Part shown: piece by piece, positions 1-64,000 of the stretch
Position numbering within the stretch: position 1 is the first letter of the stretch
Layout: the number at the start of each line of letters is the position of its first letter
NCBI GenBank assembly: GCA_009914755.4
Contig: CP086569.2
Coordinates: forward strand, 11,072,001-11,136,000
DNA length: 64,000 nucleotides
Direction of reading: 5' to 3'
DNA from: the human T2T-CHM13v2.0 reference genome, Homo sapiens
The notes under the pieces: model-generated
Database searches by the model: none
What the model was told of the DNA's origin: nothing
What the model saw: only the letters and a program-made list of their open reading frames with translations
Position numbers and translations under genes: made by a program

Positions 1-3930
<3,930 letters not shown>

Positions 3931-4838
3931 CTTTGTGGTTTTAACTACTTTTGGTCTTTGATGATGGTGATGTACAGATGGGTTTTCGGTGTAGATGTCC
4001 TTTCTGGTTGTTAGTTTTCCTTCTAACAGACAGGACCCTCAGCTGCAGGTCTGTTGGAATACCCTGCCGTGTGAGGTGTCAGTGTGCCCCTGCTGGGGGG
4101 TGCCTCCCAGTTAGGCTGCTCGGGGGTCAGGGGTCAGGGACCCACTTGAGGAGGCAGTCTGCCCATTCTCAGATCTCCAGCTGCGTGCTGGGAGAACCAC
4201 TGCTCTCTTCAAAGCTGTCAGACAGGGACACTTAAGTCTGCAGAGGTTACTGCTGTCTTTTTGTTTGTCTGTGCCCTGCCCCCAGAGGTGGAGCCTACAG
4301 AGGCAGGCAGGCCTCCTTGAGCTGTGGTGGGCTCCATCCAGTTCCAGCTTCCCTGCTGCTTTGTTTACCTAAGCAAGCCTGGACAATGGCGGGCGCCCCT
4401 CCCCCAGCCTCGTTGCCGCCTTGCAGTTTGATCTCAGACTGCTGTGCTAGCAATCAGCGAGATTCCGTGGGCGTAGGACCCTCTCAGCCAGGTGTGCGAT
4501 ATAGTCTCGTGGTGCGCCGTTTCTTAAGCCGGTCTGAAAAGCGCAATATTCGGGTGGGAGTGACCCGATTTTCCAGGTGCGTCCATCACCCCTTTCTTTG
4601 ACTCGGAAAGGGAACTCCCTGACCCCTTGCACTTCCCAGGTGAGGCAATGCCTCGCCCTGCTTCGGCTCGCGCACGGTATGCACACACACTGGCCTGCGC
4701 CCACTGTCTGGCACTCCCTAGTGAGATGAACCCGGTACCACAGATGGAAATGCAGAAATCACCCGTCTTCTGCATTGCTCACGCTGGGAGCTGTAGACCG
4801 GAGCTGTTCCTATTCGGCCATCTTGGCTCCTCCTCCCA
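3931..4838 (-). promoter_or_regulatory. L1 5'UTR with internal sense promoter (YY1 site at the extreme 5' end) and antisense promoter region
   Basis: The sequence is colinear with the L1HS 5'UTR. The YY1 core CAAGATGGCCG reads as its reverse complement cggccatcttg at about 4816-4826. Promoter activity is established knowledge for this family, not measured here. Confidence 0.8.
4386..4601 (+). CDS. L1 ORF0 (primate-specific antisense ORF in the L1 5'UTR), 71 aa, intact
   Basis: ATG at 4386 in a good Kozak context (ggacaATGG). Translation MAGAPPPASLPPCSLISDCCASNQRDSVGVGPSQPGVRYSLVVRRFLSRSEKRNIRVGVTRFSRCVHHPFL* matches the published ORF0 peptide with about 3 substitutions. Its orientation points toward the adjacent satellite. 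Confidence 0.6.
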   Translation: MAGAPPPASLPPCSLISDCCASNQRDSVGVGPSQPGVRYSLVVRRFLSRSEKRNIRVGVTRFSRCVHHPFL

Positions 4839-16700: not shown

Positions 16701-19700
16701 AATTCCATTCCTTTCCACTGCACTCCAATCCACTCCACTCAACTACATTCCACTCCACTCCACTCTGTTCTATTGCATTCCCTTGCATTCAATTCCATTA
16801 TGTTCCATTCGATCCCACTCCATTCCCACCCTCTCCACTCTATTCCACTCTGTTCCATTACACTTCATTCCACCTCATTTCTCTCCATTCTACACCATTC
16901 CTCTCCATTCCATTCCACTCCATTCCACTCCAGTCAATTCCACTCCATTCCATTCGACACCACTCTAATCCATTCCATTCCACTCAATTCCACTACACTC
17001 GACTCCACTCCACTCCGTTCCATTCCACTCCTCTAAACTCCGTTCCATTTCAATCCATTAATTTCCATTTCATGACATTCCATTCCACTGCATGTTGATA
17101 CACTCCACTCAACTCCACTCCACTCCACTCCGTTCCATTCCATTTCGTTCTATTCCATTCCATTCCACCCTACTTCATTTCATCCCACTGCATTCCACCA
17201 CACTCCACTCCACTCCACTCCTGTCCTTTCCATTTCATTCCATTCCGTTCCACTGCACTCAAATCCACTTCACTCAATACCACACCACTTCACTCCATTC
17301 CATTCCGTTCCATTTCGTTCTATTTCATTTCGTTTAACTCCATTCCTTTTGATTCCACTCCACTCCAATCCACTCCATTCCACTCTATTCCACTTCACTG
17401 CAATACAATGCACTCTACTCCACTCCATTTCATTCCTCTCCATTCCTTTCCATTCTACTCCATTCCATTACATTGCATTTCACTCCATGCTACTCTATTC
17501 CACTCCACTCCATTGCACTCCACTCCATTCCACTCTACTCTACTCCATTCCATTCAATTCCACTCCGTTCCATTTTATTCCACTTCTTGTCACTCCATTC
17601 CACTCCACTATACTCCATTTCACTGCACTCCATTCCATTGCATTCTACTCCTTTCCATTCCATTCCATTCCATTATTTCGACTAGATCTAACTCTGTCAC
17701 CCAGAGTGGAGTGCAGTTTCACAATCTTAGCTCACATTACCTTTCATCATTCTGGTACTTCCATTTCATTAGATTCCACTCCATTCCAATCAACTCCACT
17801 CCACTCCACTCCATTCCATTCAATTCCACTCAATTCCATTTAATTTCACTCCTTGTCACTCCATTCCATTCCACTACACTCCATTCCACTCCCCTCCATT
17901 CCGTTGCATTCTACTCCTTTTCATTCCATTCCTTTCCATTATTTCGACTTGAACTCACTCCATCACCCAGAGTGGAATGCAGTGGCACAATCTTATCTCA
18001 CAGTACATTTCGTCATTCCATTACATTCCATTTCTTTAGATTCCACGACATTCCAATCAACTTCACTCCACTCCACACAATGTGACAACACTCCATTCCA
18101 TTCCATTTTCTTCCATTTCATTCCACTGCACTCCAATCCACTCCCTTCGTCTCCACTCCACTCCAATCCAATCCATTCTGTTCCATTCCATTTAATTCCG
18201 TTTCATTCCATTCCATTCCATTCCATTCCATTCCATTCCATTCCATTCCAATCCACTCCATCCATTCCACTCCATTCCCGTCCATTCCCCTCCACTCCAC
18301 TCCATTCCCGTCCATTCCCCTCCACTCCACTCCATTCCATTCCATTCCATTCCACTCCATTCCATTCTATTCCATTCCATTCCACTGCACTGCCATCGAC
18401 TCCAGTCAACTCCACACCACTCCTATGCACTCCACTATGTTCCTTTCCATTCCATTCCATTCCATTCCATTGAATTCCGCTCCATTCCATGCAATTCCAA
18501 ACCACAACATTCCATTCCACTGCATTCCACTCCATTCCTTTCCACTCCACTCCACTGCATTCAATTCCATTCCATTCCACTGCACTCCAGTCAACTCCAC
18601 TCAAATGCATTCCACTCCACTCCACTCCACTCCACTCCACTCCACTCCACTCCACTCCACAGTTCCAATGTGTTCCCTTGCATTTCATTCGGTTCTGTTC
18701 CGTTTAATTCCACTCCATTCCCTTCCTCTCCACTCCATTCCACTCCACTCCTTTTCACTCCATTCCATTCCATTCCACTCCTCTCCACTCCACTGCACTC
18801 CATTCGATTTGACTCCCTTTCATTCCACTACCCTCCATTCCGTTTCATTCCATTCCTCTCCATTCCTTTCTTTTCTACTCCACTCCATTTCACTGCTTAA
18901 TTTCTACTCACTCTTTCACACAGACTGGAGTGTAGTGGCACACTCTTAGGTTGCATTTCATTTCAAAATTCCATTCCATTCCACTCCATTCCATTCCATT
19001 CCACTTCACTCCATTCCATTCCATTCAATTCCTTTTCATTCCACTGAACTCCAATCCACTTCACTCAACTCCACTCCACTCTATTCCTCTCCATTCCATT
19101 CCATTCTATTCCATTCCATTCCATTCCATTCCATTCCATTCCGATTCATTCCATTTCATCCCATTCCTTTCCTTTCCATTACCTTACATTCCACTCCATT
19201 CCATTCCATTCCACTCCAGTCCACTCTAATCCATTCCATTCCATTCCACTCCACTCCATTCCATTCCATCCCACTCTATTTCACTCCATTCCACTACAAT
19301 CCATTCCACTCCACTCCATTCCATTCCCTTACACTCCACTCCATTCCCTTACACTCCACTCCATTCCAGTGTGTTCTACCCCATTCCATTCCTTTCCTTT
19401 CATTTATTTTGGCTTGACCTCACTCCATCACCTAGACTGGAGTACAGTGTCACAATCGTAGCTCACATTTAATTTCACCAATGCATTCCATTCCATTACA
19501 TTCCAAAATATTCCATTCCTCTCCACTCCACTCCCCTCGATTCCATTCCGCTCAACTCCACTCCACTCCATTCCATTCCATTCCATTCCACTCTATTCCT
19601 CTGCACTCTGATCCACACCACTCAACTCCAATCCCCTCCACTCTACTCCAACACGTTCCATTCTTTTACATTCCACTCTGTTCCATTCCATTCCATTTGG

Positions 19701-31700: not shown

Positions 31701-33699
31701 TTTCATCATTCCATTCTATTCCATTTCATTCCATTCCATTGCATTCCGTTCCACTGCATTCCACTCCTCTCCACTTTTCTCCATCCTATTCCACTCCACT
31801 CCATTCAATTCCTCTCCCTTCCAATCCATTCCATTCCACCCCACCCCATTCCACTCCATTCCACTTCTTTGCATTCTACTCCACTGAATTCCATTCCATT
31901 CTACTCCTTTCCATTCCGTTTCTTTATTGTGACTGGATTTCACTCTGTCAACCAGACTGGAGTGTTGTTGCACAACCTTATATCACATTTCATTTTACCA
32001 TACCATTCCGTTCCATTGTATTCGAATCCACTTTTTCCATTCCTTTCCAGTCCATTCCATTCCACTCCATTCTACTCCATTCCAGTCCACTCCATTCCAA
32101 TCCACCTTACTCCAGTACAATCCACTCAAATCAACTCCATTCCACTCCATTCCATTCCTTTCCATTCCCTTCCATTCCATTCCACTGCATTCCGATCCAC
32201 TGCACTGAACTCCACTCCACTCCACTCCATTCTGTACCATTTGATTCCGTTCCATTCTATTCAATTTCATTCCATTCTACTCCACTCCATTCCATTCCAC
32301 TTTATTACATAACATTCCACTCCACTCCACTCTATTCCATTCCATTCTATTCTGTGCACTCCGATCCATTCCACTGAACTCCATTCCACTCCATTCTATT
32401 CAGTTCCATTCCGTTCCGTTCCGTATCATTCCTTTCCACTCCATTCCATGCCACTTCACTCCATTCCACTCTACTCATCCAGTCCATTCAATTACACTCC
32501 ATTCCATTCCATTACACTTTGTTCCATTACACTCCATTCTACACCATTCCAATCCATTCCACTCCACTCCATTCCAGTCCTCTCCATTCCACTCTACTCA
32601 ACTCCATTCCACTCCATTCAATTCCATTCCACTCCATTCCATTACTTTAAATTCCAACCCATTCTCCTCCACTCCATTGCACTTCATTTCGTTAGACTCC
32701 TCTCCACTTCGTTCCACTCCATTCCATTCCACTCCACTCCATTGCATTTCATTCTACTCCATTCCATTCTGTAAGTTTATTTCGACTGGATCTCACCCTG
32801 TCACCCACACTGGAGTGCAGTGGCACAATCTTAGCTTATATTTCATTCCACCGTTCCATTGCATTCCACTCCACTCCAGTCCGCTCCACTCCATTCCATT
32901 GCATTCTTCTCCATTCCATTCCATATATTTATTTTGACCGGATCACACTATGTCAACCATACTGGAATGAAGTGGCACAATCTTAGCTCACTTTTCATTT
33001 CACCTTTCCATTCCATTCCATTCCATTCCACTTCATTCCACTCCATTCCACTCCACTCCAATCCACTCGACTTCATTCCATTCAATTCCACTCCAATCTA
33101 CTCCATTCCACTTCACTCCTTTCCATTCCACTCCAATCCACACCATTGCTTTTCACTCCACTACAATCAATTCCATTCCATTTCATTAAATTCCAATCTT
33201 TTGCATTCCATTCCATTCCATTCCATTCCATTGCATTCCATTCCATTCCATTCCTTTCCACTCCATTATATTCCATTCAACTCCATTGCGGTCCATTTTT
33301 CTCCACTACACTCCATGCCAATCCACTCCACTCAACTACACAGCACTCCACTCCATTCCATTCCACTCCACTCCATTCTATCCCATTCCATTCCATTCCA
33401 TTCCATTCCATTCCATTAAATTCCATTCCATTCTACTCTACTCCTATCCATTTCACTCCACTCCGCTCCACTTCACTCAGTTCCATTCCATTCCATTATA
33501 TTCCATTCCATTCCATTACGTTCCATTACATTATATTCCACTCCACTCGATTCCATTCCACTCCATTCCCCTCCATTCCACTGCACTCCACTCCACTCCA
33601 CTCCCATCTACTCCATTCCATAGCACTCCATTCCATTCCAGTGTACTCCAATCCACTCCACAGAACTGTACTCCACTTCACTCCTTTCCATTCCGTTCC

Positions 33700-34750: not shown

Positions 34751-37700
34751 CCATTCCATTGCACTTCACTCCAATCCACTTCAATCAAATACAGTCTACT
34801 CCACTCCACCCCACTCTGTTCTGTTCAATTCCATTCCAGTCCGTTCCATTCAATTCCCTTCCATTACATTTCATTCTATTCCACTCCACTCCATTCCATT
34901 CTCCTCCATTCCACACCATTCCTCTCCACTCCACTGCACTCCACTTCACTAAATTCCACTCTACTCCACTCTATTCCATTCCACTCCACTCCAATCTATT
35001 CTACTCCATTACACTCCGATCCACTCCACTCCACTCCCCTCTGCTATACTCCAGTCCATTCCATTCTGTTCCATTCCATTCCATTCCACTACATTCCAAT
35101 GCACTCCACTCAGTTCTACTCCACTCCATTTCACAACATTCCACTCCATTCCACTCCACTCCACTCTACTCCACTCTCCTCTACTCCATTCCATTCCATT
35201 TACTACGTTCCATTTCATTTCTCTCCATTCCATTGCATTTCAATCCTTTCCATTCCATTCCATTCTTTTCCACTCAATTCCACTCCATTCCATACCACTC
35301 CACTCCATTCTTTTTCACTCCACTCCATTCTTTTTCACTCCACTCCATTCCACTCCATTCCATTCCATTCTACTTCATTGCATTCCAATCCGTGCCACTC
35401 CATTGCCTTCCACTCCATTCCCTGTACTGCATTCAACAGCTCTCCACTCTATGCAACTCTATTCCTTTCCATTCTACTCCATTCCTTTCCATTTCTTTAT
35501 TTCGACTGGATGTAATTCTGTCACTCAGACTGGAGTGCAGTGGCACAATCTCAGCTCACATTTCCTTTCAACATTGCACTCCATTAAATACCTTTGCATA
35601 CCACTGAACTCATTTCCACTCCACTCCACTCCATTCAATTCCAATCCACTGCACTAAAATCAAATCCACTCATCTCCACTTCTGTCCACCCAACTCCACT
35701 CCATTCCATTGCATTCCTTTCCATTGTGTTCCGTTTTGTTCCATTCCACTGCATTCTATTCCATTACACACCATTCCACTCTACTCCGTTTCACTCCATT
35801 CCATTCCATTTCACTCAAGTCCACTCCACTCCTCTTCACTCTGGTCCGTTACATTCCATTTGATTCGATTCGATTCCATTCGATTCCATTCAATTCCATT
35901 CCACTCCGATCAACTCCAATCAACTCGACTCCACTCCACTCCGTTCCATTCCATTCCATTCCATTCCACTGCACTCTAATCTACTCCTCTCAACTCCTTT
36001 CCTTTCAATTCCACTCCATTACATTTCATTCCACTCCACTCCTTTCTACGCCACTCCATTTCACTACATTCCTCTCCATTCTAATCTATTCCACTCCACT
36101 CATCTCCTTTCCATTCCATTCCATTTCATTCCATTCTTCTGCACTCCAATCCTCTCCACTCAACTCTTCTCCACTCCAAACCCTTTGATTCTGTTCCATT
36201 CCATTCTATTCTGTTCCATTGCATTCCATTCTAATCCTCCCCATTCCTTTCCACTCCTCTGCACTCCACTCCACTACCCTCCACCCCATTCCCTTCCATT
36301 CCTTTCTATTCCAGGACACTTCAGTCCAATCCACTCCACTCCACTCCACTCCATTCCGTTGCATTCCCTTTTGTAACGTTCCGTTCCATTCCATTAAACT
36401 CCATACCATTCCACTCCACTCCAGTCCACTCCACTGCATCCAAGTCAATTCAATTCCACTCAATTCTATTCCATTCCACTCTGTTCTATTTCATTCCATT
36501 CCACTCCATTCCACTACCTTCCAATCCACTCGATTCCCCTACTCTCCATTCCACTCCACTCAACTCCATTCCATTCCATTGTACTACATTTCCTTCCTTT
36601 CCATTCCACTCCGTTCCACTCCATTATCCTCCAGTCCATTCCACTTCATTCCTTTAGACACCATTCCACTCCATTCCACGCTATTCCATTCCACTATACT
36701 CCAATCCTTTCCATTCTACTCCATTCCATTCCGAAACTTTATTTCGACTGGATCTCACTCTGTCACTCAGACGGTAGTGCAGTAGCACAATCTTTGGTCA
36801 CATTTCATTTCACCATTCCATTCCATTCCATTCCATTCCATTCCATTCCATTCCATTCCATTCCATTCCAATCTACTCCACACCACTCCACTCTATTCCA
36901 CTACATTTCATTCCAATCTACTCCATTCCATTCCATTCCACTCCATTCCATTCCATAACTTTATTTCGACTGGCTCTCACTCTGTCACCCAGACTGGAAT
37001 GTAGTGGCACAATCTTAGCTCACTTTTCATTTCCCCTTTCCGTTACATTCCATTCCACTTCATTCCATTCCATTCCATTTCATGCCATTCCACTCCAATC
37101 TACTCCACTACAATCCACTCCACTTCACTCCATTCTGTTCCACTTCATTCCACTTCAATCCAGTCCACTCCATTCCATTCCACTCCAATCAACTGCATTG
37201 CTTTACACTCCACTCAATTCTATTCCACTCCATTCCATTCAATTTCACTCCAGTCCATTCTATTCTATTGCACTCTACTCAACTCCACTCCACTCCACAA
37301 CACTACACTCCATTCCATCCCATTTTGCTCCATTCCATTCCATTCCTTTATTTCGACTGGATCTCACTCTGTCACCAAGATCAGAGTGCAGTGGCAGAGT
37401 CTTAGCTCACATTTCATTCCACCATTCCACTCCACTCCACTCCATTCCATTCCACTCCACTCCATTCCATTCCACTCCACTCCATTCCATCCCATTCCAT
37501 TCCATTCCACTCCATTCCATTCCATTCCACTCAACTTCATTGTTTTTCACCCCACTCAATTCTATTCCACTCCATTCCATTCCATTTCACTCCAGTCCAT
37601 TCGATTCCATTCCATTCCACTCCACTCCATGCTATTCCATTTGGCACCATTCTATTCCTTTCCAATGCACTGCACTCCAATTCACTCCACACCATGCTAC

Positions 37701-45730: not shown

Positions 45731-45833
45731 TTTTCTTTTGGCAGGATTTCCCTGTGTCACCAAGGCTGGATTGCAGTGGCACAGTCACCAAGGCTGGATT
45801 GCAGTGGCACAATCTCAGCTCACATTTCATTTC
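45731..45833 (-). mobile_element. Alu 3'-terminal remnant with an internal 27-bp tandem duplication
   Basis: tcaccaaggctggattgcagtggcaca occurs twice in tandem, followed by atctcagctcac. Confidence 0.6.
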
Positions 45834-51060: not shown

Positions 51061-52183
51061 ATTTCATTTCTCCTTTCCGTTCCATTCCATTCCACTGCAC
51101 TCCACTCCAACCCACTTAATTGCATTCCACTCCACTCCAATCCGTTACATTCCATTCCTATCCAATCCCTTACATTCCACTCCTTTCTTTTGAAAGTATA
51201 TCCCTCTGTCACCGATGCTGTAGCATAGTCATGCAATCTCAGCACACATTTCTTTTCACCATTCCATTGCGTTCCATTCCATTTCTCTCCACTCCCTTCC
51301 ACTGCTTTCCATTCCACTCCACTCAACTCCATTCCATTGCAATCCACTGCACTCGACTCCACTCAGTTTCATTCCATTCCACTCCATTCCCCTCCCCTCC
51401 TCTCCTTTCCATTCCAATCCTCTCCATTCCACTCCATTCCATTCCATTCCATTCCATTCCATTCAACTCGTTTTCACTCCACTCCACTCCACTCCTTCCC
51501 ATTCCACTCCATCCCATTCCATTCGACTCCATTCCACTCCACTCCACTCCTCTCTTTTCTAATCCACTTCATGCGATTCCATTCCATTCCATTCCATTTC
51601 AAACCGTTGCATTCCATTCCTTTCTTTTGAGAGGATATCACTATGTCACCCAGGCTGGTGTGCAGTGGTATAATCTCAGCTAACATTACATGTCAACTTT
51701 CCATTGCATTGCATTCTATTCCTTTGCTTTGCATTGCATTGCATTGTTTTCCATTACCTTGCATTCTATTCCATTCCGTTTCATTCCAGGGCATTCCTTT
51801 GCATTCCACTCCTTTCCATTCCATTCCACTCCACTCCATTTCACTCAACTTCACTCCACTCCATTCCATTCCATTCCATTACACTCACTCCACTCCATAC
51901 CATCCCACCCTTTCCACTCCATTCCACTCAATTCCAGTTCACTTCACTCCAGTCCAATCCACTCGATTCCACTTCAATCCATTCCGTTCCATTCCACTCC
52001 ATTCCATTCCACTCCACTTCATTCCATTCCACTCCACCCCATTCCATTCCAGTCCACTGCACTCCATCGACTCCATTTCATTCCATTCCATTCCACTCCA
52101 CTGCACACCACTCCATTCCATTACACACCATTCCTTTCCACTCCACCCCACTCCAATCCATTCTTGTCCACTCCACTCCAATG

Positions 52184-55100
52184 GGGGCATTGTTACATAT
52201 TTCTGCACTGATCACCCAGGTAATGCAACTGTTGTCTACACTCTGCCTACAGGGGCATTGTGACATATCACTACACTGATCCCACAGGTGATGAGACTCT
52301 TCTCCACGCTCTGCCTACAGGGGTCTTTGTGACATATCACTGCACTGATCACTCAGGTGATGGGACTCTTCTCTATACTCTGCCTAGAGGGGGATTTGTA
52401 ACATAGTTTTGCTCTGACCACCCAGGAGATGGAAGTCTTGTCTAGGCTCTATCTATGGGGGCATTGTGTCAAATATCCGCACTGATCATCGAGGGGATTT
52501 AACGTTGTCAAGGCTCTGTCTACAGGGATTTTTGTGGCATATCACTGCATTAATCACCAAGATGATGTAACTCTTCTCTAGGCTCTGTTTACATGGGCAT
52601 TTTCACCTATCACTGCACTGATCACCCAGGTGATGTAACCCTTGTCTAGGCTCTGCCTACCAGGGCTTTGTGACACATCTCTACACTGATCACCCGGGTG
52701 ATGTAAGTCTTTGTTGGATCTGCCTATGGGAGCATGCGACATATCTCTGCAGTGATCACCCAGGTGACAGGACCCTTTTCTAGGCTCTCTGTATGGGGGA
52801 TTTGTGACATATCTCCGCACTGATCACCAAGGTGATGTAACGTTTGACTAGGCTCTGCCTACTGGGGCATAGTGACATATCACTGCACTAATCACCGAGC
52901 TGATGTACCTCTTACCCAGGCTCTGCCAATACGGGGTCTTTTGACATATCTCTGCACTGATTGTCTAGGTGATGTTACTCTTGATTACGTTCTGCCTGCA
53001 GGGGCATTGTGAAATATATATTTACTGATCAAACAGGATATGTAACTCTTCTCTAATCTCTGTCTACAGGTGGCATTGTGGCATAACACTGCACTGATCA
53101 CCCAGGTGATGGGACTCTTCTCCAGGTTATGCCTACTGGGGACACTGTCACATATTTCTGCAGTGATCACCCAGGTGACGGACTTTTGTCTTGGATCTGG
53201 CTATGGGTGCAATGTGACATATCTCTGCATTGATCATCCAGGTCATGTAACTCTGGTCTAAGCACTGCCTAAAGGGACATTGTGACAGATCTCTGCACTG
53301 ATCACTCAGGTGATCTAACTATTGTCTAGGTTCTGCTTAAAGGAGCCTTGTCACATACCTCTGCACTGATTACCGAGGTGATGTAACTCTTGTCAAGGAT
53401 CTCCTTTCAGGGGGTATTGTTACACGTCTCTGAACTGATCACCTAAGTGATGTGACACTAGCGTAGGCTTTGCCTACAGGGGCATTTTGACATATCTCTG
53501 CACTGTTAACCGAGGTGATGTAACTATTTTCTAGGCTGTGACCACAGGGGGATCGAGACATATATCTGCACTAATCGCCAGGTGATCCAACTGTTGTCTG
53601 GGCTCTGCCTACTGGGGACATTGTGACATATCTCTGCACTGATCTCCCAAGTGATGTAACTTTTGTCTAGGCTCTGGCTACGCGGCATTTTGACATATCA
53701 CTGCACTGGACACCCAAGTGATATAACTCGTGTCTAGGCTCTGCCTACAGGGGGCCTGTGACATACCTCTGCACTGATCACCCAAGTGATGTAACTCTTG
53801 TCTGGGATCTGCCTGCAGGTTGCTTTGTGACATATCCCGTCAATGATCACCCAGGTGATGTACCACTTGTCAAGGCTCTGCCTACAGGGGCATTGTGAAG
53901 TATCTCTGCACTGATCACCTAGGTCATATAACCCTTGTCTAGGATCTCTCTGCAGTGGCATTGTGACATATCTCTGCAGTGATCACCCAGGTAATGTAAC
54001 TCTTGTCTAGGATCTGCCTATAGGGTGCTTTGTGACATTTCCCTGCAATGATCACCCAGGTGATATGCCATTTGTCTAGGCTCTGCCTACAGGGACATTA
54101 CGATGTATCTCTGAACTGATCACCTAGATCACGTATTTTTTTCTAGGTTCTGCCTACAGTGGCACTGTGGCATATCTCTGCAGTGATCACCCAGGTGATG
54201 TAACTCTTGTCTAGAATCTGACTACATGGTGCTTTGTGACATATCCCTGCAATGTTCACCAAGGTGTTGTACCACTTGTCAAAGCTCTGCCTGCTGGAGC
54301 ACTGCGACGTATCTCTACACTAATCACCTAGGTCATGTAATTCTTTTCTAGGATCTTCCAACAGTGGCATTGTGACATATCTCTGCACTGATCACCCAGG
54401 TGATGTAACACTTGTCTAGGATCTGTCTAAAAAGACTTTGTGACATAACTTTGCGCTGATCCCCCAGGTGAAGGGACTTTTGTCTATGCTCTGCTACGGT
54501 GGCATTGTGACATATCTCTACACTGATCACCCAGGTGTTGTAACTCTTGTGTTGGATCTGCCTACTGGGCATTGCGACATATTGCTGCACTGATCACCAA
54601 GGTGATGTGACTCTTGTCTTGTCTAGGCTCGGTGTATGGGGGATTTGTGACTTATCTCTGCACTGATTACCCAGGTGATGTAACGCTTGACTAGGCTCTG
54701 CCTACTGGGACACAGAGACAGATCATTGCATTGATCATCAAGCTGATTTGTCTGTTGTCCAGGATCTGTCTACAGGGGGCCTTGTGACGTATCTCTGCAC
54801 TGATCATCTAGGTGCTGTATCTCTTGCTTACGTTCTTTTTGCAGGGGCTTTGTGAAATATCTCTGTATTGATCAACCAGGTGATGTAACTCTTGTCTAGG
54901 CTCTGCCTACAGGGGGCATTGTGGAATAACTCTGCACTGATCACCCAGGTGATGTAACTCATCTGAGCTCTGCCTACAGGGGCCTTGTGACATATCACTG
55001 CACTAATCACCCCGGGGAGAGAATTCCTCTCTAGGCTCTACTTACAGGGGGCTTTGTGACCTGTCTCTGCAATGATCACCCAGTGATGTAACACTTGTCT

Positions 55101-58100
55101 AGGATCTGCGTTAAGGGACTTTGAGACATAACTCTGCACTGATCATCCAGGTGTTGGGGCTTTTATCTAGGCTCTGCCTACAGGGGCATTGTGACGTATT
55201 TCTGCACTGAACACCCAGGTGACGGACTCTTGTCTTGCATATGCCTATTTGGGATTTCTGGCATATCTCTGCACTGATCACCCAGGTAATGAAACTGTGC
55301 TATAAGCTCTGCCTACAGGGGAATTTTGAGAGATCTCTCCACTGTTCACCCAAGTGACGTAACTATTTTCTAGGCTTTGCCTACAGGGGGTTTGTGACAT
55401 ATCTTTGCACTGATCACCCAGTGATGTAACTCCTCTAAGCTCTTCCTTCAGGGGCCTTGTGACATTTCTCTGCCATGCTTACCCTGGGGAGAGAATTCTT
55501 GTCTACGCTCTGCCTACAGGGGTCTCTGTGACATATCACTGCACTGATCTTGAAGGTGATGTAACAGTTTTATAAGCTCTGCCTACAGAGTGTATAGTGA
55601 AATATATCTGCACTGATCACCTAGGTGATGTAACTCTTGTCTACCCTCTGCCTGCAGGGGGCATTGTGAAATATCTCTGCACTGATCAACTAGGTGACGT
55701 AACCCTTCTCTAGTCTCTGCCTACAGGGGCGTTTTGACATATCTCTGAACTGGTGACAAAGGTGATGTAACTCTTGCCTAGGCTTTGCCTGCAGGAGACA
55801 TTGTGACATATCTCTGCACTGATCACACAGGTGATGTAACTCTTGTCTAGTCTTTGCCTACAGAGGGCGTTGTGGCATATCTCTGTACTGATCTCTCAGG
55901 CGAGGTAACTCTTGTCTAGTCTCTGCCTACAGAGGGCATTGTGACATCACTCTGCAATGATCACCCAGGTGATGTAACTCTTGTCTAGGCTCTGCCTACC
56001 GGGGCATTTTAACATATCACTGCACTGATCACTGAGATGATGTAACTCTTGTATATGCTTCGCTGACAGGGGGCATTGAGACATATCTCTCTGTTGATCA
56101 CCGAGGTGATGCTAGTCTTGTCTAGGATCTGCCTGTAGAGGGCATTGTGAAATATCTCTGACCTGATCATCCAGGTGATGTAATTCTGGTCTAGGCTCTG
56201 CCTACTGGAGACACTGTGACTTATCTCTGCACTGATCACACAGGTGATGTAACTCTTGTCTAGTCTTTGCCTACAGAGGGCGTTGTGGCATATCTCTGCA
56301 CTGATCTCTCAGGTGAGGTAACTCTTGTCTAGTCTCTGCCTGCAGAGTGAGTTGTGACATCACTCTGCAATGATCACCCAGGTGACGTAACTCTTGCCTA
56401 GGCTCTGCCTACATGGATATTGTGACATGTCTGTTCACTGATCACCCAGGTGATGTAAATTTTGTCTAGTCTCTGCCCACATGAGGATTTTGATATATCC
56501 CTGCACTGATCACCGAGATGATGTAACTCTTTTCTGGGCTTTTCTGACAGGAGGCATTGAGACATATCTCTGCACTGATCACTGAGGTGATGCAACTCTT
56601 GTGTGGGCTCAGCCTACAGGGGGCATTGTGACATACCTCGGCCCTGATCACCCAGGTGATGTAACTCTTGTCTAGGCTCAGCCTAAAGGTGGTATTGTGA
56701 CATATCTCTGCACTGATAACCCAGGTGATGCAATTCTTCTCTAGGATCTGCCTACAGGGGCATTGTGACATATCTCTGCACTGATCACAAAGGTGATGTA
56801 ACTCTTCTTTAGGCTCTGCCTGCAAGGTGCTTTGTGAAATCAATCTGTATTGATAATCCAGGTGATGTAACATTTGTCTAGGCTCTGCCTAAGGGGGCAC
56901 TGTGACACATCTCTGCACTGATCACTGAAGTGATGTGACCCCTGTCTAAGTTCCCCCTATGGGTGCATTGTGAGATATCTCATCACTGATTCCCCAAATT
57001 ATGTAACCCTTTTCTAGGGTTTGCCTAAAGGGGGATTTGCCACATATGTCTGTACTGATCACCCAGGTGGTGTAACCCTTTTCTGGGGTCTGCCTACAGG
57101 GAAGTTGTGACATATCACTGCACTGATCACCCAGGTGATGTAACTTTTCTCTGGGCTGTACTTTCATGGGTCTTTGTGACATATCTCTGCACTGACCAAC
57201 TAGGTGATGTAACTCTTTTCTAGGCTTTTCCCGGAGGAGGCATTATTACATATCTCTACAATGATCACTGAGGTAGTGCAACTCTTGTCTACGCTATGCC
57301 TACAAGGGCATTGTGACATATCCCTACACTCATAACACAGGTGATGTCACTCTTGTCTAAGCTCTGCCAACCGGGGTCTTAGTGACATAACTCTGCACTG
57401 ATCACTCAGATGATGGTACTCTTCTCAATACTCTGACTAGAGGAGGATTTGTGACATATCCCTGCACTGATCACCCAGGTGATCGAAGTCTTGTCTAGGC
57501 TCTGTCTAAGGGGGCATTGTGTCAAATATCTGCACTGATCACCCAGGTGATGTAACTCTTTTCTAGGCTCTGTCTACAGGGATTTTTGTGATATATCACT
57601 GCACTGATGACCTCGATGACGTAACTCTTGTCTAGGCTCTGCCTACAAGGGCATTTTGACTTATCACTGCGCTGATCACCCAGGTGATGTAACAGTTGTC
57701 TAGGCTCTGCCTATAGGGGGCATTGTGACATATCTCTACACTGATCATCCAGGTGATTTAACTTTTGTCTAGGCTTTGACTGCAGTAGTTTTTGACATAT
57801 CTCTGCACTGATCACTGACGAGATGGAACACTTGTCTAGGCTCTGCCTAAATGGGCATTGTGACACATCTCTGAACTGATCAACCAAGTGATGTAACACT
57901 TGTCTAGGCTCTGCCTACAGGGCTTTGTGACATATCTCTGTACTGATCACCCAGGTAATGGGACTTGTGTCTAGGTTCTGCCAACGGGGGCATTGTGACA
58001 TATCTGTAAACTGATCACCCAGGTGATGTAACCCTTGTGTTGGATTTGCCTATGGTGGCATTGCGACATATTTCTGCACTGATCACCAAGGTGATGGGAC

Positions 58101-61100
58101 TATTTTCTAGGCTCTGCCTGTGGGGGCTTTGTGACTTATCCCTGCACTGATCACCCAGGTGATGTAACACTTGACTAGGCTCTGCCTACTGGGGCATAGT
58201 GACATATCACTGCATTGATCACTCAGATGTTGTAACTATTGTCTAGGCTCTGCTTAAAGGGGTCTTGTCACATATCTCTGCACTGATCACCCAACTGATG
58301 AAACACTTGTCTAGGCTCTGCCTACACGGGCATTGTGACACATCTCTGAACTGATCAACCAATTGATGCAACTCTTGTCTAGGCTCTGCCTACAGGGACT
58401 CTGTAACATATCTCTGCACTGATAACCCAGGTTATGGGACTTTTGTCTAGGCTCTGCCTATGGGGGAATTGTGACGTATCTCTACACTGATCACCCAAGT
58501 GATGTAACTCTTGTGTTGGATCTGTCTATGGGGGCATTGCGACATATTTCTGCCCTGATCACCCAGGTGGTGAGACCCTTTTCTAGTCTTTGTGTAGGGG
58601 GGCTTTGTGACATATCTCTGCACTGATCACACAGGTTATGTAACACTTGACTAGGTTCTGCCTACTGGGGCATTGTGAAATATCACTGCATTGTTCACTC
58701 AGATGATGTAACTATTTTCTAGACTGTCTAGGTGATGTAACAATTTTATAAGCTGAGCATATAGGGAATTTTGACAAACCTCTGCACTGATCACCTGGGT
58801 GATATACCTGTTGTATACCCTCTACCTACAGGGGGTATTGTGAAATATCTCCGCAATGATCACCTAGGTGATGTAACTGTTGTCTACCCTATGCCTACAG
58901 GGGGCATTGTGAAATATCTCTGCACTGACCACCAGGTGAGGCATCTCTTGTCTAGCATCTGCCTACATGGGATATTGTGAAATATCTCTGCACTGATCAA
59001 CTAGGTGATGTAACTCTTGCCTAGGCTCTGCCTACAGGGGCTTTTTGACATATCTCTGAACTGATGGCAAAGGTGATGAAACTCTTGCCTAGGCTTTGCC
59101 TTCAGGGGACATTGTGACATATCTCTGCACTGAGCACTCACGTGATGCAACTCTTCTCTATGCTCTGCCTACAGGGGGCATTGTGACATATCTCTGCACT
59201 GATCACCCAGGTGATGTAACTCTTTTCTAATCTCTGCCTACAGAAGGCTTTGTGACATCACTCTACACGGATCACCAGGGTTATGTAACTCTTGTCTACC
59301 GTCTGCCTACAGGGGGCATTGTGAAATATCTCGCACTGATCACCCAGGTGATGCAACTCTTGTCTAGGATCTGCCTGCAGGGGTTATTGTGAAATGTCTC
59401 CGCACTGGTCAACTAGGTGATGTAACTATTGTTTAGGCTCTGCCTACATGGGCGGTTTGACATATTTCTGAACTATGACAAAGGTGATGTAACTCTTGCC
59501 TAAGCTTAGCCTACAGGGGACATTGTGACATATCTCTGCACTGATCACCTAGGTGATGTATCTCTTTTCTAGTCTCTGCCTACAGAGGGGGTTGTGACAT
59601 CACTCTGTATGGATCACCCGGGTTATGTAACTCTTGTCTAGGCTCTGCCTATGGGGGCATTGTGACGTATCTCTGCACTGATCACCCAGGAGATGTGACT
59701 CTTGTTTAAGCTCTGCCTACAGGGGCTTTGGGAAATATCTCTGCACTGATCACTGAGCTGACATAACTCTTGTCTAGTCTTTGACTACAGTGGGATTTAT
59801 GACATATATCTGCATTGATCACCCAGGTGATGTAACTCTTGTCTAGGCTCTGCCTACTGGGATATTTTAACATATCAGTGCACAGATCACCGAGATGATG
59901 TAACTCTTGTATAGGCTTCACGGATAGGGGGCATTGAAACATAACTCTGCACTGATGACCGAGTTGATGCAACTCTTGTCTGGGATCTGCCTACAGGGGG
60001 CATTGTGACAAATTTCTGACTTGATCACCCAGGTGATTTTACTCTTTTCTAGGCTCTGCCTACTGGAGACATTGTGACTTATCTCTGCACTGATCACCCA
60101 GGTGATGTAACTCTTGGCTAGATCTGGCCACAGGGACATTGTGACATATATCTGCACTGATCACACAGGTGATGTAACTGTTGTCTAGTCTTTGCCTACA
60201 GAGGGGGTTGTGACATATCTCTGCACTGATCTCTCATGTGAGGTAACTCTTGTCTATTCTCTGCCTACAGAGGATGTTGTGACATCAGTCTGCCGTGATT
60301 GCCCTGATGATGTAACTCTTGTCTGGGCTCTGCCTACATGGACATTGTGACATGTCTCTGCACTGATCATTCAGGTGATGTAAATTGTGTCTAGGCTTTG
60401 CCCACAGGGGCATTTTGACATATATCCACAGTGATCACCGAAATGATGGAACTGTTGTGTAGCCTTTGCCAACAGGAGGCATTGAGACATATCTCTGAGC
60501 TGATCACTGAGGTGATGCAACTCTTGTCTGGGCTCTGCTGACAGGAGGCATTGAGACATATCTCTGCACTGATCACCGAGGTGATGCAACTCTTGTCTGG
60601 GCTCTGCCTACAGGGGGCGATGTGACATATATCTGTCCTGATCACCCAGGTGATGTAACTCTTCTCTAGGCTCTGCTTAAAGTGGGTATAGTGACATATT
60701 TCTGCACTGATCACCTAGGTGATGTAACTCTTTTCTAGACTCTGCCTACAGGGGCATTTTGACATATCTCTGAAGTGATCACTGAGGTGATGTAACTCTT
60801 GTCTAGGCCTTGCCTACAGGGGGCATTATAACATATCTGTGCACTGATCACCCAATTGATGTAACTCTTGTCTAGGCTCTGCTTTCAGGGGGTATTGTGA
60901 GATATCTCTGCACTGATCACCCAGGTGATGAAACTCTTGTCTAGGCTCTGCCAACAGGGGCATTTTAACATATCACTGCACTGATAACTGAGATGATATA
61001 ATTCTTTCATAGGCTTCGCCGACAGTGGGCATTGAGACATATCTCAGCGTTGATCGCCAAATGATGCAACTGTTTTCTGGGATCTGCCTAAAGGGGACAT

Positions 61101-61397
61101 TTTGATATATCTCTGATCTGATCTCCCAGGAGATGTAACTCGTGTCTAGTCTCTGGCCACAGGGACATAGTGGCATATATCTGCACTGATCACACAGGTG
61201 ATGTAATTTGTCTAGTCTTTGCCTACAGGGAGCGTTGTGAAATATCTCTGCACTGATCTCTCAGGTGAGGTAACTCTTGTCTAATCTCTGCCTACAGAGT
61301 GCTTTGTGACATCAGTCTGCAATGATCACCCAGGTGATGTAACTCTTGTCTAGGCTCTGCCAACATGGAGATTTTGACATGTCTCCGCACTGATCAC
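52184..61397. repeat. Beta satellite (about 68-bp Sau3A family) array, orientation A
   Basis: About 135 tandem monomers of about 68 bp, each with …ctgcactGATCAcccaggtgatgtaactcttgtctaggctctgcctacagggggcattgtgacatatct… The GATC site typical of beta satellite is present in most monomers. It begins abruptly after the last CATTC-type pentamers at 52183. Confidence 0.85.
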
Positions 61398-64000
61398 ATT
61401 GTGACATAGGTCGCAATGCCCCATAGGCAGATCCAACACAAGAGTTACATCACCTGGGTGATCAGTGTAGAGATATGTCACAATGCCCCCGTAGGCAGAG
61501 CCTAGAGAAAAGTCCCATCACCTTGCTGATCATTGCAGGAATATGTCACAAAGCAACCTGTAGGCAGATCCCAGACAAAAGTTATATCACCTGGGTGATC
61601 ACTGCAGAGATATGTCACAATACCACCGCAGGCAGAGCCTAGGCAAGAGTTACATGCCCTAGGTGACCCGTTCAGAGATACATCACAATGCCCCTGTAGT
61701 CAGAGCCTTGACAAGTGGCACATCACCTGGGTGATCATTGCAGGGATATGTCACAAAGCACCCTGTAGGCAGATCCAAGGCAAGAGTTACATCACCTGGG
61801 TGGTCAGTGCAGAGATATGTCACAAGCCCCCTTTATACAAAGCCTAGACAAGAGTTATATCAGCTGGGTGATTAGTGCAGTGATATGTCACAATGCCGTG
61901 TTGCCAGAGTCTAGACAAAAGTTACATCACCTGAGAGATCAGTGCAGAGATATATCACAATATCCCCAGTGGGTAGAGCCCAGACAAGAGATAGATCACC
62001 TTGGGATCAGTGCAGAGAGCTGTCTCAATCACCCTGTGGGCACAGCCTAGACAAGAGTTACATCACCTCGGTTAACAGTCCAGAGATATGTCAAAATGCC
62101 GCTATACTCAGAGCCTACACAAGTGTTTCATCACTGAGGTGATCAATGGAGAGATATGTCACAATACTCCCTATAAGCTGAGCCTAGACAAGAGTTACAT
62201 CACCTGGGTGATCAGTGCAGAGATATGTGACCAGGCCCCTTTAACCAGAGCTTAGACAATAGTTCCATCACCTGAGTGATCAGTGAAGAGATCTGTCACA
62301 AAGCCCCTTTAGGCAGAGCTTAGACCAGAGTTACATCACCTGTGTGATCAGTGCAGTGAAATGTCACAATGCCCCCATAGGCAGATCCAAGACAAGAGTC
62401 CATCACCTGGGTGATCAGTGCAGAAATATATGACAGTTCCCCCAGTAGGCAGAGCCTAGAGATGACTCCCATCACCTGGGTGATCAGTGCAGAGTTATGC
62501 CAAAATGCCCTCTGTAGGCAGAGCCTAGACAAGAGTTACATCACCTGGTGTATCAGTAAGAGACATTTCACAATGCCCCTGCAGGCAGAGCGTAAGCAAG
62601 AGTTACATTACCTAGATGATCAGTGCAGAGATATGTCACTAGGCCCCCTATAGGCAGAGCCTGGAGAAGAGTTACATCATCTCGGTGATCAATGCAGCAA
62701 TATGTCACTATGCTCCAGTAGGCAGAGGCTAGTCAAGTGTTACATCACCTGGGTGATCAGTGCAGATATATGTCACAAAGCCCCCATGCAAATAGCCTAG
62801 ACAAGAGTCCTATCACCTTGGTGATCAGTGCAGAAATATGTCGCAATGCACCATAGGCAGATCCAACACAAGAGTTACATCACCAGGCTGATCAGTGTAG
62901 AGATATGTCACAATGCCCCCGTAGGCAGAGCCTAGACAAAAGTCCCATGACCTGGGTGATCAGTGCAGAGATATATCACAAAGCCCCTGTAGGCAGAGCC
63001 TAGACAAGAGTTACATAATTTGGTTGATCAGTTCAGAGATGTGTCACAATGCCCACGTAGGCAGAGCCCAGACTAGAGTTCCAACAGCTGGGTGATCAGC
63101 GGAAAGATATGTAACAAGACCTCTTTAAGCAGAACCTAGACAATAGTTACATCATCTGAGTGATCAGTGCAGTGATATGTCACAATGCCCCCGTCGGCAG
63201 AGCCTAGACAAAAGTCCCATCACTTGGGTGGTCATTTCAGGGACATGTCACAAAGCCCCTGTAGGCAGAGCCTAGACAAGAGTTACATCATTTGGTAGAT
63301 CAGTTCAGAGATGTGTCACAATGCCCATGTAGGCAGAACCTAGACAAGTGTTACATCACCTGTGTGATCAGTGCAGAGATATGTCACAAAACCCCTGCAG
63401 GCAAAGCCTAGACAAGAGTCGCATAACCTGGATGATCAGTGCAGAGTTATGTCACAAAGTCCCTTTAGGCAGATCCTAGGCAAGAGTTACATCAGCAGGG
63501 TGATCACTGTAGAGATATGTCTCTCTGCCACTTTAGGTGGAGCCTAAATAAGAGTTACATGACCTAGGTGATCAGTGCAGAGATACATCGCAATACCCCT
63601 GTAGGCAGAGCCTTAACAAATGGTATATCACCTGGGTGATTATTGCAGGGATATGTAAAAAAGCACCCTGTAGGCAGATCCCAGACAAGAGTTGCATCAC
63701 CTCGGTGATCAGTCCAAAGATATGTCTCAATGTCCCCTGTCAGCGAAGCCTATACAAGAGTTACATCATCTCGGTGATCAGTGCAGTGATATGTTAACAT
63801 GCCCATGTAGGCAGAGCATAGAAAAGAGTTACATCACCTGGGTGATCCGTGCCGAGATATCTCACAATACCCCCTGTAAGCAGAGCCTAGACAAGAGTTA
63901 CACCAACGGGGTGATCAGTGCAGGTAGATGTCATAAATCCCACTGTAGGCAAAGCCTAGACAAGTGTTACATCACCTCAGTGATCAGTAAAGATATATGT
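61398..64000. repeat. Beta satellite array, inverted orientation (reverse complement of the 52184..61397 monomers); continues past window end
   Basis: From about 61408 the monomers read …gtaggcagagcctagacaagagttacatcacctgggtGATCAgtgcagagatatgtcacaatgcccc…, the reverse complement of upstream monomers. A roughly 1.43 kb (21-monomer) recurrence appears at 61411 versus 62841. Confidence 0.85.

What the first reader, a model, noticed from the sequence alone, without database searches (positions are those of the whole stretch)
61380..61420. Head-to-head inversion breakpoint inside the beta-satellite array with a near-palindromic centre
The monomer orientation flips between 61397 and 61408. The junction reads …gcactgatcac|attgtgacata|ggtcgcaatgcccc… The left half cattgtgaca and the right half ggtcgcaatg (reverse complement cattgcgacc) form an 8/10 inverted match around a 'ta' centre. 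This signature is typical of fold-back or hairpin-mediated inversion, or of an inverted duplication. The arms are not exact mirror images near the junction, so it is not a simple recent palindrome.
Basis: seen in the sequence. Interest (0 to 1): 0.5.

Follow-up and report, generated by a model that had tools for sequence, protein, structure and literature searches.

The report
Old strand-switch breakpoint in beta-satellite
The 68-bp beta-satellite repeats do flip orientation at this spot, but it is an old, ordinary rearrangement scar of a kind already counted by the hundreds in complete human genomes, and the small palindrome at its centre is a 9-bp hairpin-type footprint rather than the centre of a large mirror-image duplication.

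Summary
135 beta-satellite monomers in + orientation (52184-61397) meet at least 39 monomers in - orientation (61406-64000, running off the window). The junction reads exactly as quoted.

The fold-back interpretation holds only at small scale. The two arms have identical 68-bp consensus sequences, so they belong to the same subfamily. They are not mirror images: identity in mirror register is 76-77%, which is background.

The - arm is instead a mosaic of inverted paralogues of + arm blocks 3-9 kb away. The best is 61490-62919 against 52662-54091, with a mean of 0.83 on its anti-diagonal; 0 of 500 permutations reach that.

The breakpoint resolves to the base:
- The + arm stops at monomer phase 32 (61397).
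- The - arm starts at phase 13-17 (61406-61410).
- In between lie 8-11 nt (ATTGTGAC[ATA]) that are an inverted copy of the - arm's own first 9 nt.

This gives a 9-bp stem with a 4-nt loop, and the single stem mismatch is a CpG/TpG transition. I read this as end-joining of an inverted segment after a short hairpin or snap-back step. That reading is inferred, not shown.

As a generic motif the palindrome is no more frequent than chance. Strand switches in beta-satellite arrays are already described (Altemose 2021, Nurk 2022). Interest is low. Read support for the assembly could not be tested.

The parts
52184..61397 (+). The + oriented arm: 135 diverged, monomeric 68-bp beta-satellite repeats. 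The last one is truncated at monomer phase 32 (...CTCCGCACTGATCAC).
   Evidence: TRF, consensus BLAST and wrap-around parse. Paralogues of the last 101 nt (L61, L55, L118; 0.86-0.89 against background 0.77 +/- 0.036) continue CCAGGTGATG after phase 32, so the arm is cut at 61397. No higher-order repeat: lag means are all 0.74-0.77.
61398..61408 (+). Junction filler ATTGTGAC(ATA). It is a beta-satellite fragment in + orientation, phase 6-16, and matches the consensus perfectly. The last 3 nt (ATA, 61406-61408) can equally be read as phase 17-15 of the - arm. C61397 is shared with the + arm (1 nt of microhomology).
   Evidence: Local alignments. A PSSM parse with two jumps (+ arm | + fragment | - arm) scores 71.2 bits against 48.9 bits for the best single-jump parse. 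GATCACATTG and ACATAGGTC occur only here in the window.
61397..61418 (.). The 22-bp near-palindrome CATTGTGAC-ATAG-GTCGCAATG: a 9-bp stem and 4-nt loop. The single stem mismatch (T against CG-context G) is a CpG/TpG transition.
   Evidence: strand folding on DNA: -6.2 kcal/mol, z = -5.6 for the 22-mer alone, but z = -1.6 in a 56-nt context. Palindrome scans.
61406..64000 (-). The - oriented arm: at least 39 beta-satellite monomers, running off the window. The first monomer is truncated and keeps only phase 1-13 (certain) to 17 (probable).
   Evidence: The junction-proximal 84 nt belong to a distinctive dimer type with five paralogues at 90.5-95.2% identity (background 78.8 +/- 4.5%). All five continue ...GCGACATATTTCTGCAC, whereas the junction reads GCGACCTATGTCACAATGTGATCAG, which pins the break after phase 13-17.
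52662..54091 (+). The + arm block that is the closest relative, in inverted order and orientation, of - arm 61490-62919. A weaker signal extends over 52184-54156.
   Evidence: BLAST: 83.2% over 1977 bp against 75-78.6% elsewhere. Anti-diagonal s=29 has mean 0.831, z about 6.5, and each L monomer's partner on this diagonal is its best match among the R monomers in most cases. 0 of 500 order permutations reach this value; their maximum is 0.779.
61490..62919 (-). The - arm block that is paralogous to 52662-54091, at about 0.81-0.93 per monomer.
57852..58666 (+). A second set of + arm blocks (two copies, 7 monomers apart) whose inverted paralogues lie at 62513-63259 in the - arm. Eight-monomer windows reach 0.88 and single monomers reach 0.96.
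   Evidence: s=107 and s=114, and L x L lag 7 at 0.864.

Best explanation
This is a genuine, old strand-switch (inversion-type) breakpoint inside one decayed, monomeric beta-satellite array in a hominoid pericentromeric or acrocentric-type region. It has no function of its own.

A piece of the same array was joined in reverse orientation to a + arm broken at monomer phase 32. The visible part of that piece is a mosaic of relatives of + arm blocks lying 3-9 kb to the left.

The end of the inverted piece, broken at phase 13-17, carries an 8-11 nt extension that is the reverse complement of its own last 9 nt. This is the footprint expected when a broken end forms a short hairpin or snaps back on itself and is extended or opened off-centre before being ligated. 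It resembles P-nucleotide-like or polymerase-theta-type inverted templated insertions. The final join to the + arm used 0-1 nt of microhomology, so it was non-homologous or microhomology-mediated end joining rather than homologous recombination.

Shown: the flip, the base-level breakpoints, the filler, the lack of mirror symmetry and the displaced inverted paralogy.

Inferred: the hairpin/snap-back step, the end-joining pathway, and the choice between an in-place two-break inversion and an inverted duplication.
For: - Orientation flip.
- Same subfamily on both sides: identical consensus and equal LL/RR/LR identity.
- No mirror symmetry: mirror-register alignment 77.1%, anti-diagonals s=130-139 at 0.76-0.78 against background 0.762 +/- 0.011.
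- Displaced inverted paralogy: s=29 at 0.831 with 0 of 500 permutations reaching it; further blocks at s=107, 114 and 56.
- Both arms truncated mid-monomer, confirmed with arm-specific paralogues.
- Three-part junction favoured by 22 bits over a two-part one.
- The filler is an inverted copy of the adjacent 9 nt, with one CpG/TpG difference, forming a 9-bp stem and 4-nt loop.
- The age is not recent: paralogues differ by 5-17% and the stem already carries a transition.
- The class is known. [quoted passage not shown] Nurk et al. describe a 'mosaic inversion structure' in proximal BSat arrays (PMC9186530). A 2026 preprint finds hundreds of randomly placed strand switches, read as by-products of array expansion (10.64898/2026.07.22.740206).
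Against: - The filler matches the array consensus perfectly, so it could have been copied from any consensus-like monomer rather than from the adjacent end. There are 16 other + copies of ATTGTGACATA and 6 inverted copies, the nearest at 61474, 68 bp away.
- I estimate about a 3% chance that a random beta-satellite fragment would land in the hairpin-forming phase and orientation. That is suggestive, not conclusive.
- With only one junction and one end of the - block in the window, an in-place inversion cannot be separated from an inverted duplication.
- Read-level support for the assembly is untested.
Confidence: 0.7

Rival explanations
1. True fold-back (snap-back replication, or breakage-fusion-bridge-type sister fusion). 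This would have produced a long perfect palindrome centred at 61407/61408. Its left arm was later almost entirely deleted or replaced, leaving only CATTGTGACATA. The jump from phase 32 to phase 5 at 61397/61398 would be the scar of that deletion.
For: - The + fragment ends at phase 16 and the - arm starts at phase 17, so the two meet in the same monomer phase at the small internal ATAT palindrome. That is what a zero-loop fold-back gives.
- From established knowledge, long palindromes are unstable and tend to be stabilised by asymmetric deletions.
- In the structural-variant sense, joining 61397(+) to the inverted equivalent of about 54.1-54.6 kb is a 'fold-back-type' junction with a spacer of about 7 kb.
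Against: - No mirror-image similarity survives beyond 11 nt.
- It needs a second event, a deletion ending 11 nt from the centre.
- Large indels are rare in this array: one 96-bp monomer among 174.
- The - arm has at least two independent inverted paralogy diagonals with different offsets (s=29 and s=107/114). One fold-back does not predict that.
Confidence: 0.17
2. Assembly artefact: a chimeric or mis-joined contig, or a missed-adapter or fold-back read, that created a false head-to-head junction.
For: - Satellite arrays are hard to assemble.
- No read data could be examined.
- Two exact-match scans of metagenome contigs for the junction, a 35-mer and a 21-mer, found nothing. A look-up of a junction-spanning ORF also found nothing. 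These collections are not expected to contain this locus, so the negatives carry little weight.
Against: - Missed-adapter or fold-back read artefacts give arms that are exact reverse complements. Here the mirror identity is background, about 77%.
- A graph mis-join needs long near-identical overlaps, but the closest inverted relatives are only about 83-95% identical and lie elsewhere.
- The junction carries a diverged, CpG-decayed micro-palindrome, which fits an old germline event.
- Such switches are validated features of T2T assemblies.
Confidence: 0.05
3. Two separate beta-satellite arrays of different origin that happen to abut in opposite orientation, with no inversion of shared material.
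For: None beyond the change of orientation itself.
Against: - The consensus sequences are identical at 68/68 positions.
- Divergence within and between arms is equal.
- The arms share specific multi-monomer paralogous blocks and a distinctive dimer type with derived variants (TCTACAC, TTGTGTTGGATCTGCCTAT, GCATTGCGAC) on both sides.
Confidence: 0.03
4. A functional inverted-repeat element, such as a protein-binding palindrome, a structured RNA or a regulated cruciform, placed at the switch.
For: The 136-nt window across the junction folds better than its shuffles as ssDNA (-23 kcal/mol, z = -3.4), whereas one-orientation control windows give z = -0.45 to +1.0.
Against: - That stability is the automatic result of placing roughly 76%-identical repeats head to head.
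- No Rfam family matches anywhere in the window.
- There are only short, repeat-derived ORFs.
- The stem is short and already decaying.
- Published surveys find strand switches randomly placed.
Confidence: 0.02

Closest known systems
Strand switches ('mosaic inversion structure') of human beta-satellite arrays in T2T assemblies (Altemose et al. 2021/2022; Nurk et al. 2022; 2026 population preprint)
   Same: A 68-bp beta-satellite array next to HSat-type (CATTC)n satellite with an internal orientation switch. It lies in diverged, non-HOR repeats. The same repeat population sits on both sides, and inverted blocks are interleaved with direct ones.
   Different: Nothing in kind. The passages I read in those papers count and map switches and did not describe junctions base by base. 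The base-level anatomy here (phase 32 | 8-11 nt inverted self-copy | phase 13-17) is an added detail for one instance.
Fold-back inversions / inverted duplications from breakage-fusion-bridge cycles or snap-back replication (cancer genomes, yeast palindromic amplification)
   Same: A head-to-head junction, a short palindromic core, and the two joined positions a few kb apart in reference terms (about 7 kb between 61397 and the nearest + arm relative of the - arm end).
   Different: No mirror-image arms survive. The event is old and germline-fixed, inside a tandem array where many paralogues exist, so the 'partner' position is ambiguous. No copy-number step can be assessed.
Hairpin-derived palindromic junction insertions (P-nucleotide-type additions after off-centre hairpin opening; polymerase-theta 'snap-back' templated insertions in alternative end joining)
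   Same: A short insert at a non-homologous junction that is the reverse complement of the immediately adjacent end (9-bp stem, 4-nt loop), with 0-1 nt of microhomology at the other side.
   Different: The pathway cannot be identified from sequence alone. The insert is also a perfect match to the repeat consensus, so a different template cannot be excluded. This comparison rests on my own knowledge of those pathways and was not tested.
Inversions in divergent monomeric alpha-satellite layers flanking active centromeres
   Same: Old, decayed tandem repeats that accumulate inversions, TE insertions and segmental duplications. Here a 5'-intact L1 abuts the neighbouring HSat array.
   Different: A different satellite family and monomer length. 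No relation to centromere layers is shown here.

Membership tests
Human beta satellite (Sau3A / BSR 68-bp family) | Tandem repeat with a unit of about 68 bp | tested here: met
   TRF gives periods of 68/69 bp with 96 + 38 + 38 copies. The monomer length mode is 68-69 in the wrap-around parse.
Human beta satellite (Sau3A / BSR 68-bp family) | A Sau3AI site (GATC) in the monomer consensus | tested here: met
   The consensus ...CTGCACTGATCACCCAGG... contains GATC at phase 27-30. That this site defines the family is from my own knowledge.
Human beta satellite (Sau3A / BSR 68-bp family) | Sequence match to the published BSR or beta-satellite consensus | not testable with these tools
   No repeat library is available. 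A full-text search for four 19-20-mers of the consensus found no paper. The identification rests on period, Sau3A site, context and my recollection of the consensus.
Human beta satellite (Sau3A / BSR 68-bp family) | Hominoid pericentromeric or acrocentric context next to HSat2/3-type satellites | tested here: met
   47 kb of (CATTC)n lies directly upstream, with the boundary at 52183/52184. The flanking LINE-1 ORF2 matches human L1 ORF2p at 1822 bits over 830 aa.
Satellite strand switch (intra-array inversion breakpoint) | The same repeat family on both sides in opposite orientation | tested here: met
   (identical consensus, equal divergence).
Satellite strand switch (intra-array inversion breakpoint) | Junction supported by reads or present in independent haplotypes | not testable with these tools
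   No reads and no primate genome collection are available. Indirect attempts were negative and uninformative.
Fold-back inversion / palindromic inverted duplication | Arms are reverse complements of each other in mirror register about the junction | tested here: not met
   Mirror-register alignment is 77.1%, which is background. Anti-diagonals s=130-139 score 0.76-0.78 against 0.762 +/- 0.011. Palindromic matches do not extend: 9 of 14, 10 of 20 and 21 of 40.
Fold-back inversion / palindromic inverted duplication | Both arms meet in the same repeat phase with a short or absent spacer | tested here: inconclusive
   This is true for the 11-12 nt + fragment against the - arm (phase 16 | 17). It is not true for the main + arm, which stops at phase 32.
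Hairpin / snap-back templated junction insertion | The insert is the reverse complement of the sequence immediately adjacent to the junction | tested here: met
   CATTGTGAC against GTCGCAATG gives 8 Watson-Crick pairs plus one G-T at a CpG site, with a 4-nt loop. Caveat: the insert also equals the array consensus.
Hairpin / snap-back templated junction insertion | Dependence on a specific pathway (Artemis/DNA-PKcs hairpin opening, or Pol theta) | not testable with these tools
   This needs experiments. The sequence cannot discriminate between pathways.

The most novel reading that the evidence does not exclude
The short inverted self-copy at this junction might not be a one-off. It could be the recurrent signature of how the mosaic inversion structure of beta-satellite arrays arises. 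Broken ends or stalled nascent strands in beta-satellite would preferentially fold back at the monomer's internal ATAT/TGATCA mini-palindromes, so that a large share of the hundreds of strand switches would sit at the same monomer phases and carry hairpin-derived fillers. That would turn a descriptive catalogue into a testable mechanism for satellite inversion.
Probability: 0.12. Interest if true: 0.45.

Novelty: already known. Interest (0 to 1): 0.15.

Why it matters
On its own it matters little. It is one more orientation switch in a satellite family already known to contain hundreds of them, in non-coding heterochromatin, with no sign of function.

Its modest value is methodological in two ways:
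- A strand switch in a roughly 75%-identical monomeric array can still be resolved to the base by using arm-specific paralogues.
- Doing so separates 'large fold-back palindrome' from 'end-joined inverted segment with a hairpin-type filler'.

If the same footprint recurred at many beta-satellite switches, it would point to a specific mechanism for the mosaic inversions seen in T2T assemblies. For assembly quality control, the lack of mirror symmetry argues against the usual fold-back read artefact.

Tried and rejected
1. Mirror-image (fold-back) arms. Tested by BLAST of the reverse-complemented right arm against the left arm and by a monomer identity matrix. Rejected, because the mirror register is at background.

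2. Unrelated adjacent subfamily. Rejected, because the consensus sequences are identical and the arms share paralogous blocks.

3. Higher-order repeat structure as the explanation for the inverted paralogy. No array-wide HOR exists; lag means are flat. There are only local features: a 3-monomer a-b-c run at about 53.7-54.5 kb, a 7-monomer duplication at 57.6-58.7 kb, and a recurring distinctive dimer.

4. Single-jump junction, with the switch at the monomer's TGATCA palindrome and the - arm running on to phase about 25. Rejected, because it scores 22 bits worse than the three-part parse and the - arm paralogues continue differently.

5. Statistical excess of palindromes. Not found: counts are at or below shuffle expectation.

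6. A second orientation switch at 58.7 kb. The '-' BLAST hit is a 14-nt chance match, and the irregular 96-bp monomer there is a direct intramonomer duplication.

7. Independent occurrences of the junction. Two metagenome-contig scans and one exact-protein look-up returned nothing. They are uninformative because these collections are not expected to hold this locus.

8. Structured RNA. Rfam gave no hit at gathering thresholds in the whole window.

9. Literature look-up of the consensus sequence string. No hits.

10. Chromosomal assignment. Not possible with the tools. The context fits an acrocentric short arm or the chr1/chr9 pericentromere, but that is only a guess.
Full report
**Context.** The window is hominoid satellite DNA.
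- Bases 1 to about 4832 are the antisense strand of a 5'-intact LINE-1. The 5'UTR start is at 4832. ORF1 and a broken ORF2 are present. ORF2 matches human L1 ORF2p structures at 1822 bits over 830 residues.
- Bases 4843-52163 are a (CATTC)n HSat2/3-type array, which keeps a strongly negative GC skew throughout and so shows no switch of its own.
- Beta-satellite begins at 52184 with a sharp boundary. Its units are 68 bp and their consensus carries the Sau3AI site.
- Rfam finds nothing in the window.

**Checking the observation.** The quoted sequence is present at 61380-61422.
- BLAST of the 68-bp consensus gives only + hits up to 61397 and only - hits from 61424 on. The one stray - hit on the left is a 14-nt chance match.
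- TRF splits the array at 61397/61406 and reports reverse-complementary consensus units.
- AT skew changes sign at the same place.
- A wrap-around alignment parses 135 monomers on the left and 39 on the right, which run off the window.
- The palindrome is as described: 8/10 around 'ta'. This equals 9/11 with no spacer, or a 9-bp stem with a 4-nt loop and dG -6.2 kcal/mol as single-stranded DNA.

**Is the palindrome beyond chance?** Not as a motif.
- Palindromes of that quality occur 5 times in the 11.8 kb of beta-satellite, against 8.9 +/- 4.8 in shuffles.
- Stems of 9 bp with at most one mismatch occur twice, against 6.1 +/- 2.7.
- The palindrome does not extend: 9 matches in 14, 10 in 20, 21 in 40.
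- What is special is only that it sits exactly on the strand switch. That happens because the same stretch of the monomer (phase 5-14) is present there on both strands.

**Are the arms related, and how?**
- The consensus of left and right monomers is identical at all 68 positions.
- Mean pairwise monomer identity is the same within and between arms (0.745, 0.737, 0.742). It is therefore one repeat population, not two subfamilies.
- There is no array-wide higher-order repeat.
The mirror register (61458-63986 against 58857-61397) gives 77.1%, indistinguishable from the 75-78.6% found in dozens of other registers.
- In the monomer matrix the mirror anti-diagonals score 0.76-0.78 against a background of 0.762 +/- 0.011.
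- The outstanding signal is elsewhere. Right-arm 61424-63395 aligns in inverted order to 52184-54156, at the far end of the left arm, with 83.2% identity over 1977 bp.
- Per monomer, the core of this match (61490-62919 against 52662-54091) runs at 0.81-0.93, and each left-arm monomer's partner is its best match among the right-arm monomers in most cases.
- No permutation of monomer order out of 500 reaches the observed mean of 0.831; their maximum is 0.779.
- Further inverted paralogies with other offsets exist: 62513-63259 against 57852-58394 and 58123-58666, at up to 0.88 in 8-monomer windows and 0.96 for single monomers.
- The left arm also has direct internal paralogies of similar strength.

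The array is therefore a patchwork of old segmental duplications, and the right arm is a mosaic of inverted relatives of left-arm blocks.

**The junction at base resolution.**
- The + arm ends with a monomer cut at phase 32 (...CTGATCAC, 61397). Its closest paralogues continue CCAGGTGATG, which is missing here.
- The first 84 nt of the - arm belong to a distinctive dimer type marked by TCTACAC, TTGTGTTGGATCTGCCTAT and GCATTGCGAC. It has five other copies: R22/21 at 95.2%, L34/35 at 94.0%, L92/93 and L85/86 at 92.9%, and L7/8 at 90.5%, against a background of 78.8 +/- 4.5%.
- All five copies continue ...GCGACATATTTCTGCAC. The junction copy reads GCGACCTATGTCACAATGTGATCAG. The - arm is therefore cut after phase 13-17 (61410-61406).
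- Between the arms lies ATTGTGAC(ATA), 61398-61405(-61408). It is a + oriented fragment of phase 6-13(16) that matches the consensus perfectly.
- A position-specific scoring of 61366-61422 prefers this three-part parse to the best two-part parse by 22 bits (71.2 against 48.9).
- The filler is the reverse complement of the first nine bases of the - arm. CATTGTGAC faces GTCGCAATG, and the one mismatch is T opposite the G of a CpG, the commonest mammalian transition.
- C61397 is shared between the + arm and the filler (1 nt of microhomology).
- G61409 fits neither reading.

**Mechanism.** The evidence shows a non-homologous join between two mid-monomer breaks in opposite orientation, with a short inverted self-copy on one end. 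I infer that the end of the inverted segment formed a small hairpin or snapped back on itself. It was then extended or opened off-centre and ligated to the + arm by end joining.

Two points remain open:
- I cannot decide whether the inverted segment was flipped in place (two-break inversion) or copied (inverted duplication or template switch), because its other end is outside the window.
- The main rival is a true fold-back palindrome whose left arm was later deleted to within 11 nt of the centre. It explains the in-phase meeting (phase 16 | 17) at the ATAT mini-palindrome. However, it needs a second, precisely placed event and does not predict the several different inverted paralogy offsets.

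An assembly artefact of the fold-back-read type is excluded by the lack of mirror identity. A generic mis-join is unlikely but untested. The better folding of the 136-nt window across the junction (z = -3.4 against -0.45 to +1.0 in controls) is the automatic consequence of head-to-head repeats and is not evidence of function.

**Age.** Paralogues of the blocks involved differ by about 5-17%, and the stem already carries a CpG transition. The event is therefore old, on a scale of millions of years. This is a rough inference only.

**Comparison with what is known.**
- Nurk et al. describe a 'mosaic inversion structure' in proximal acrocentric BSat arrays (PMC9186530).
- A 2026 population preprint finds hundreds of strand switches in beta-satellite arrays. 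Their number is proportional to array length and they are randomly placed, and the authors interpret them as stochastic by-products of array expansion (10.64898/2026.07.22.740206).

This junction is an instance of that class. In the passages I read, I found no base-level description of such junctions, so the anatomy given here is a small addition and not a new kind of feature.

**Verdict.** The novelty rating is 'already known'. Interest is low (0.15).

The most novel reading still open is that such hairpin-derived fillers and preferred monomer phases are a general signature of beta-satellite inversion. I give that a probability of about 0.12, and it would be of moderate interest if true.

Noticed in passing
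window 1-4832 (minus strand): A 5'-intact LINE-1 lies antisense, and its 5'UTR start (GGAGGAGGAGCCAAGATGGCCGAATAGG...) abuts the (CATTC)n array directly. ORF1 is 356 aa with an aberrant, frameshifted C-terminus. ORF2 is open for 833 aa and then broken, and it matches human L1 ORF2p at 1822 bits over 830 aa. This is a fairly young L1 at the edge of, or inserted into, an HSat array. It is not coding-competent.
   Followed up: partly
window 52163-52184: The HSat-type (CATTC)n array changes to beta-satellite at a sharp boundary (...ccactccaat|gggggcattgt...) with no intervening sequence. Monomers at the left-arm start (52184-52660) show only background similarity to the inverted right-arm block that matches their neighbours.
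   Followed up: partly
window 58690-58765: One irregular 96-bp monomer is caused by a direct intramonomer duplication of about 28 bp (aggtgatgtaac[t/a]atttt...). This is why TRF splits the + arm into two arrays at 58722/58764. It is not an orientation change.
   Followed up: yes
window 53682-54500, 57648-58666 and 62513-63327: There is local higher-order structure inside an otherwise monomeric array. A 3-monomer a-b-c periodicity runs over about 53.7-54.5 kb. A 7-monomer duplication lies at 57.6-58.7 kb (0.86). A distinctive dimer (TCTACAC...TTGTGTTGGATCTGCCTAT + GCATTGCGAC) recurs six times across both orientations at 90-95% identity.
   Followed up: partly
window 17529-18207, 32712-33050, 36594-37182, 45756-45811: Longer-period sub-repeats (266, 152 and 222 bp) and Alu-like fragments (for example GTCACCAAGGCTGGATTGCAGTGGCACA duplicated exactly, and ...GGAATGAAGTGGCACAATCT) are embedded in the (CATTC)n array. 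They may help assign the HSat subfamily or chromosome.
   Followed up: no
window 61340-61449: Across the junction the + arm segment TAACTCTTGT (61340-61349) can pair with ACAAGAGTTA (61440-61449). The centre of that symmetry is about 61394.5, 13 nt to the left of the small hairpin's centre at 61407.5. This illustrates that the main arms are out of register with the 22-bp core.
   Followed up: yes
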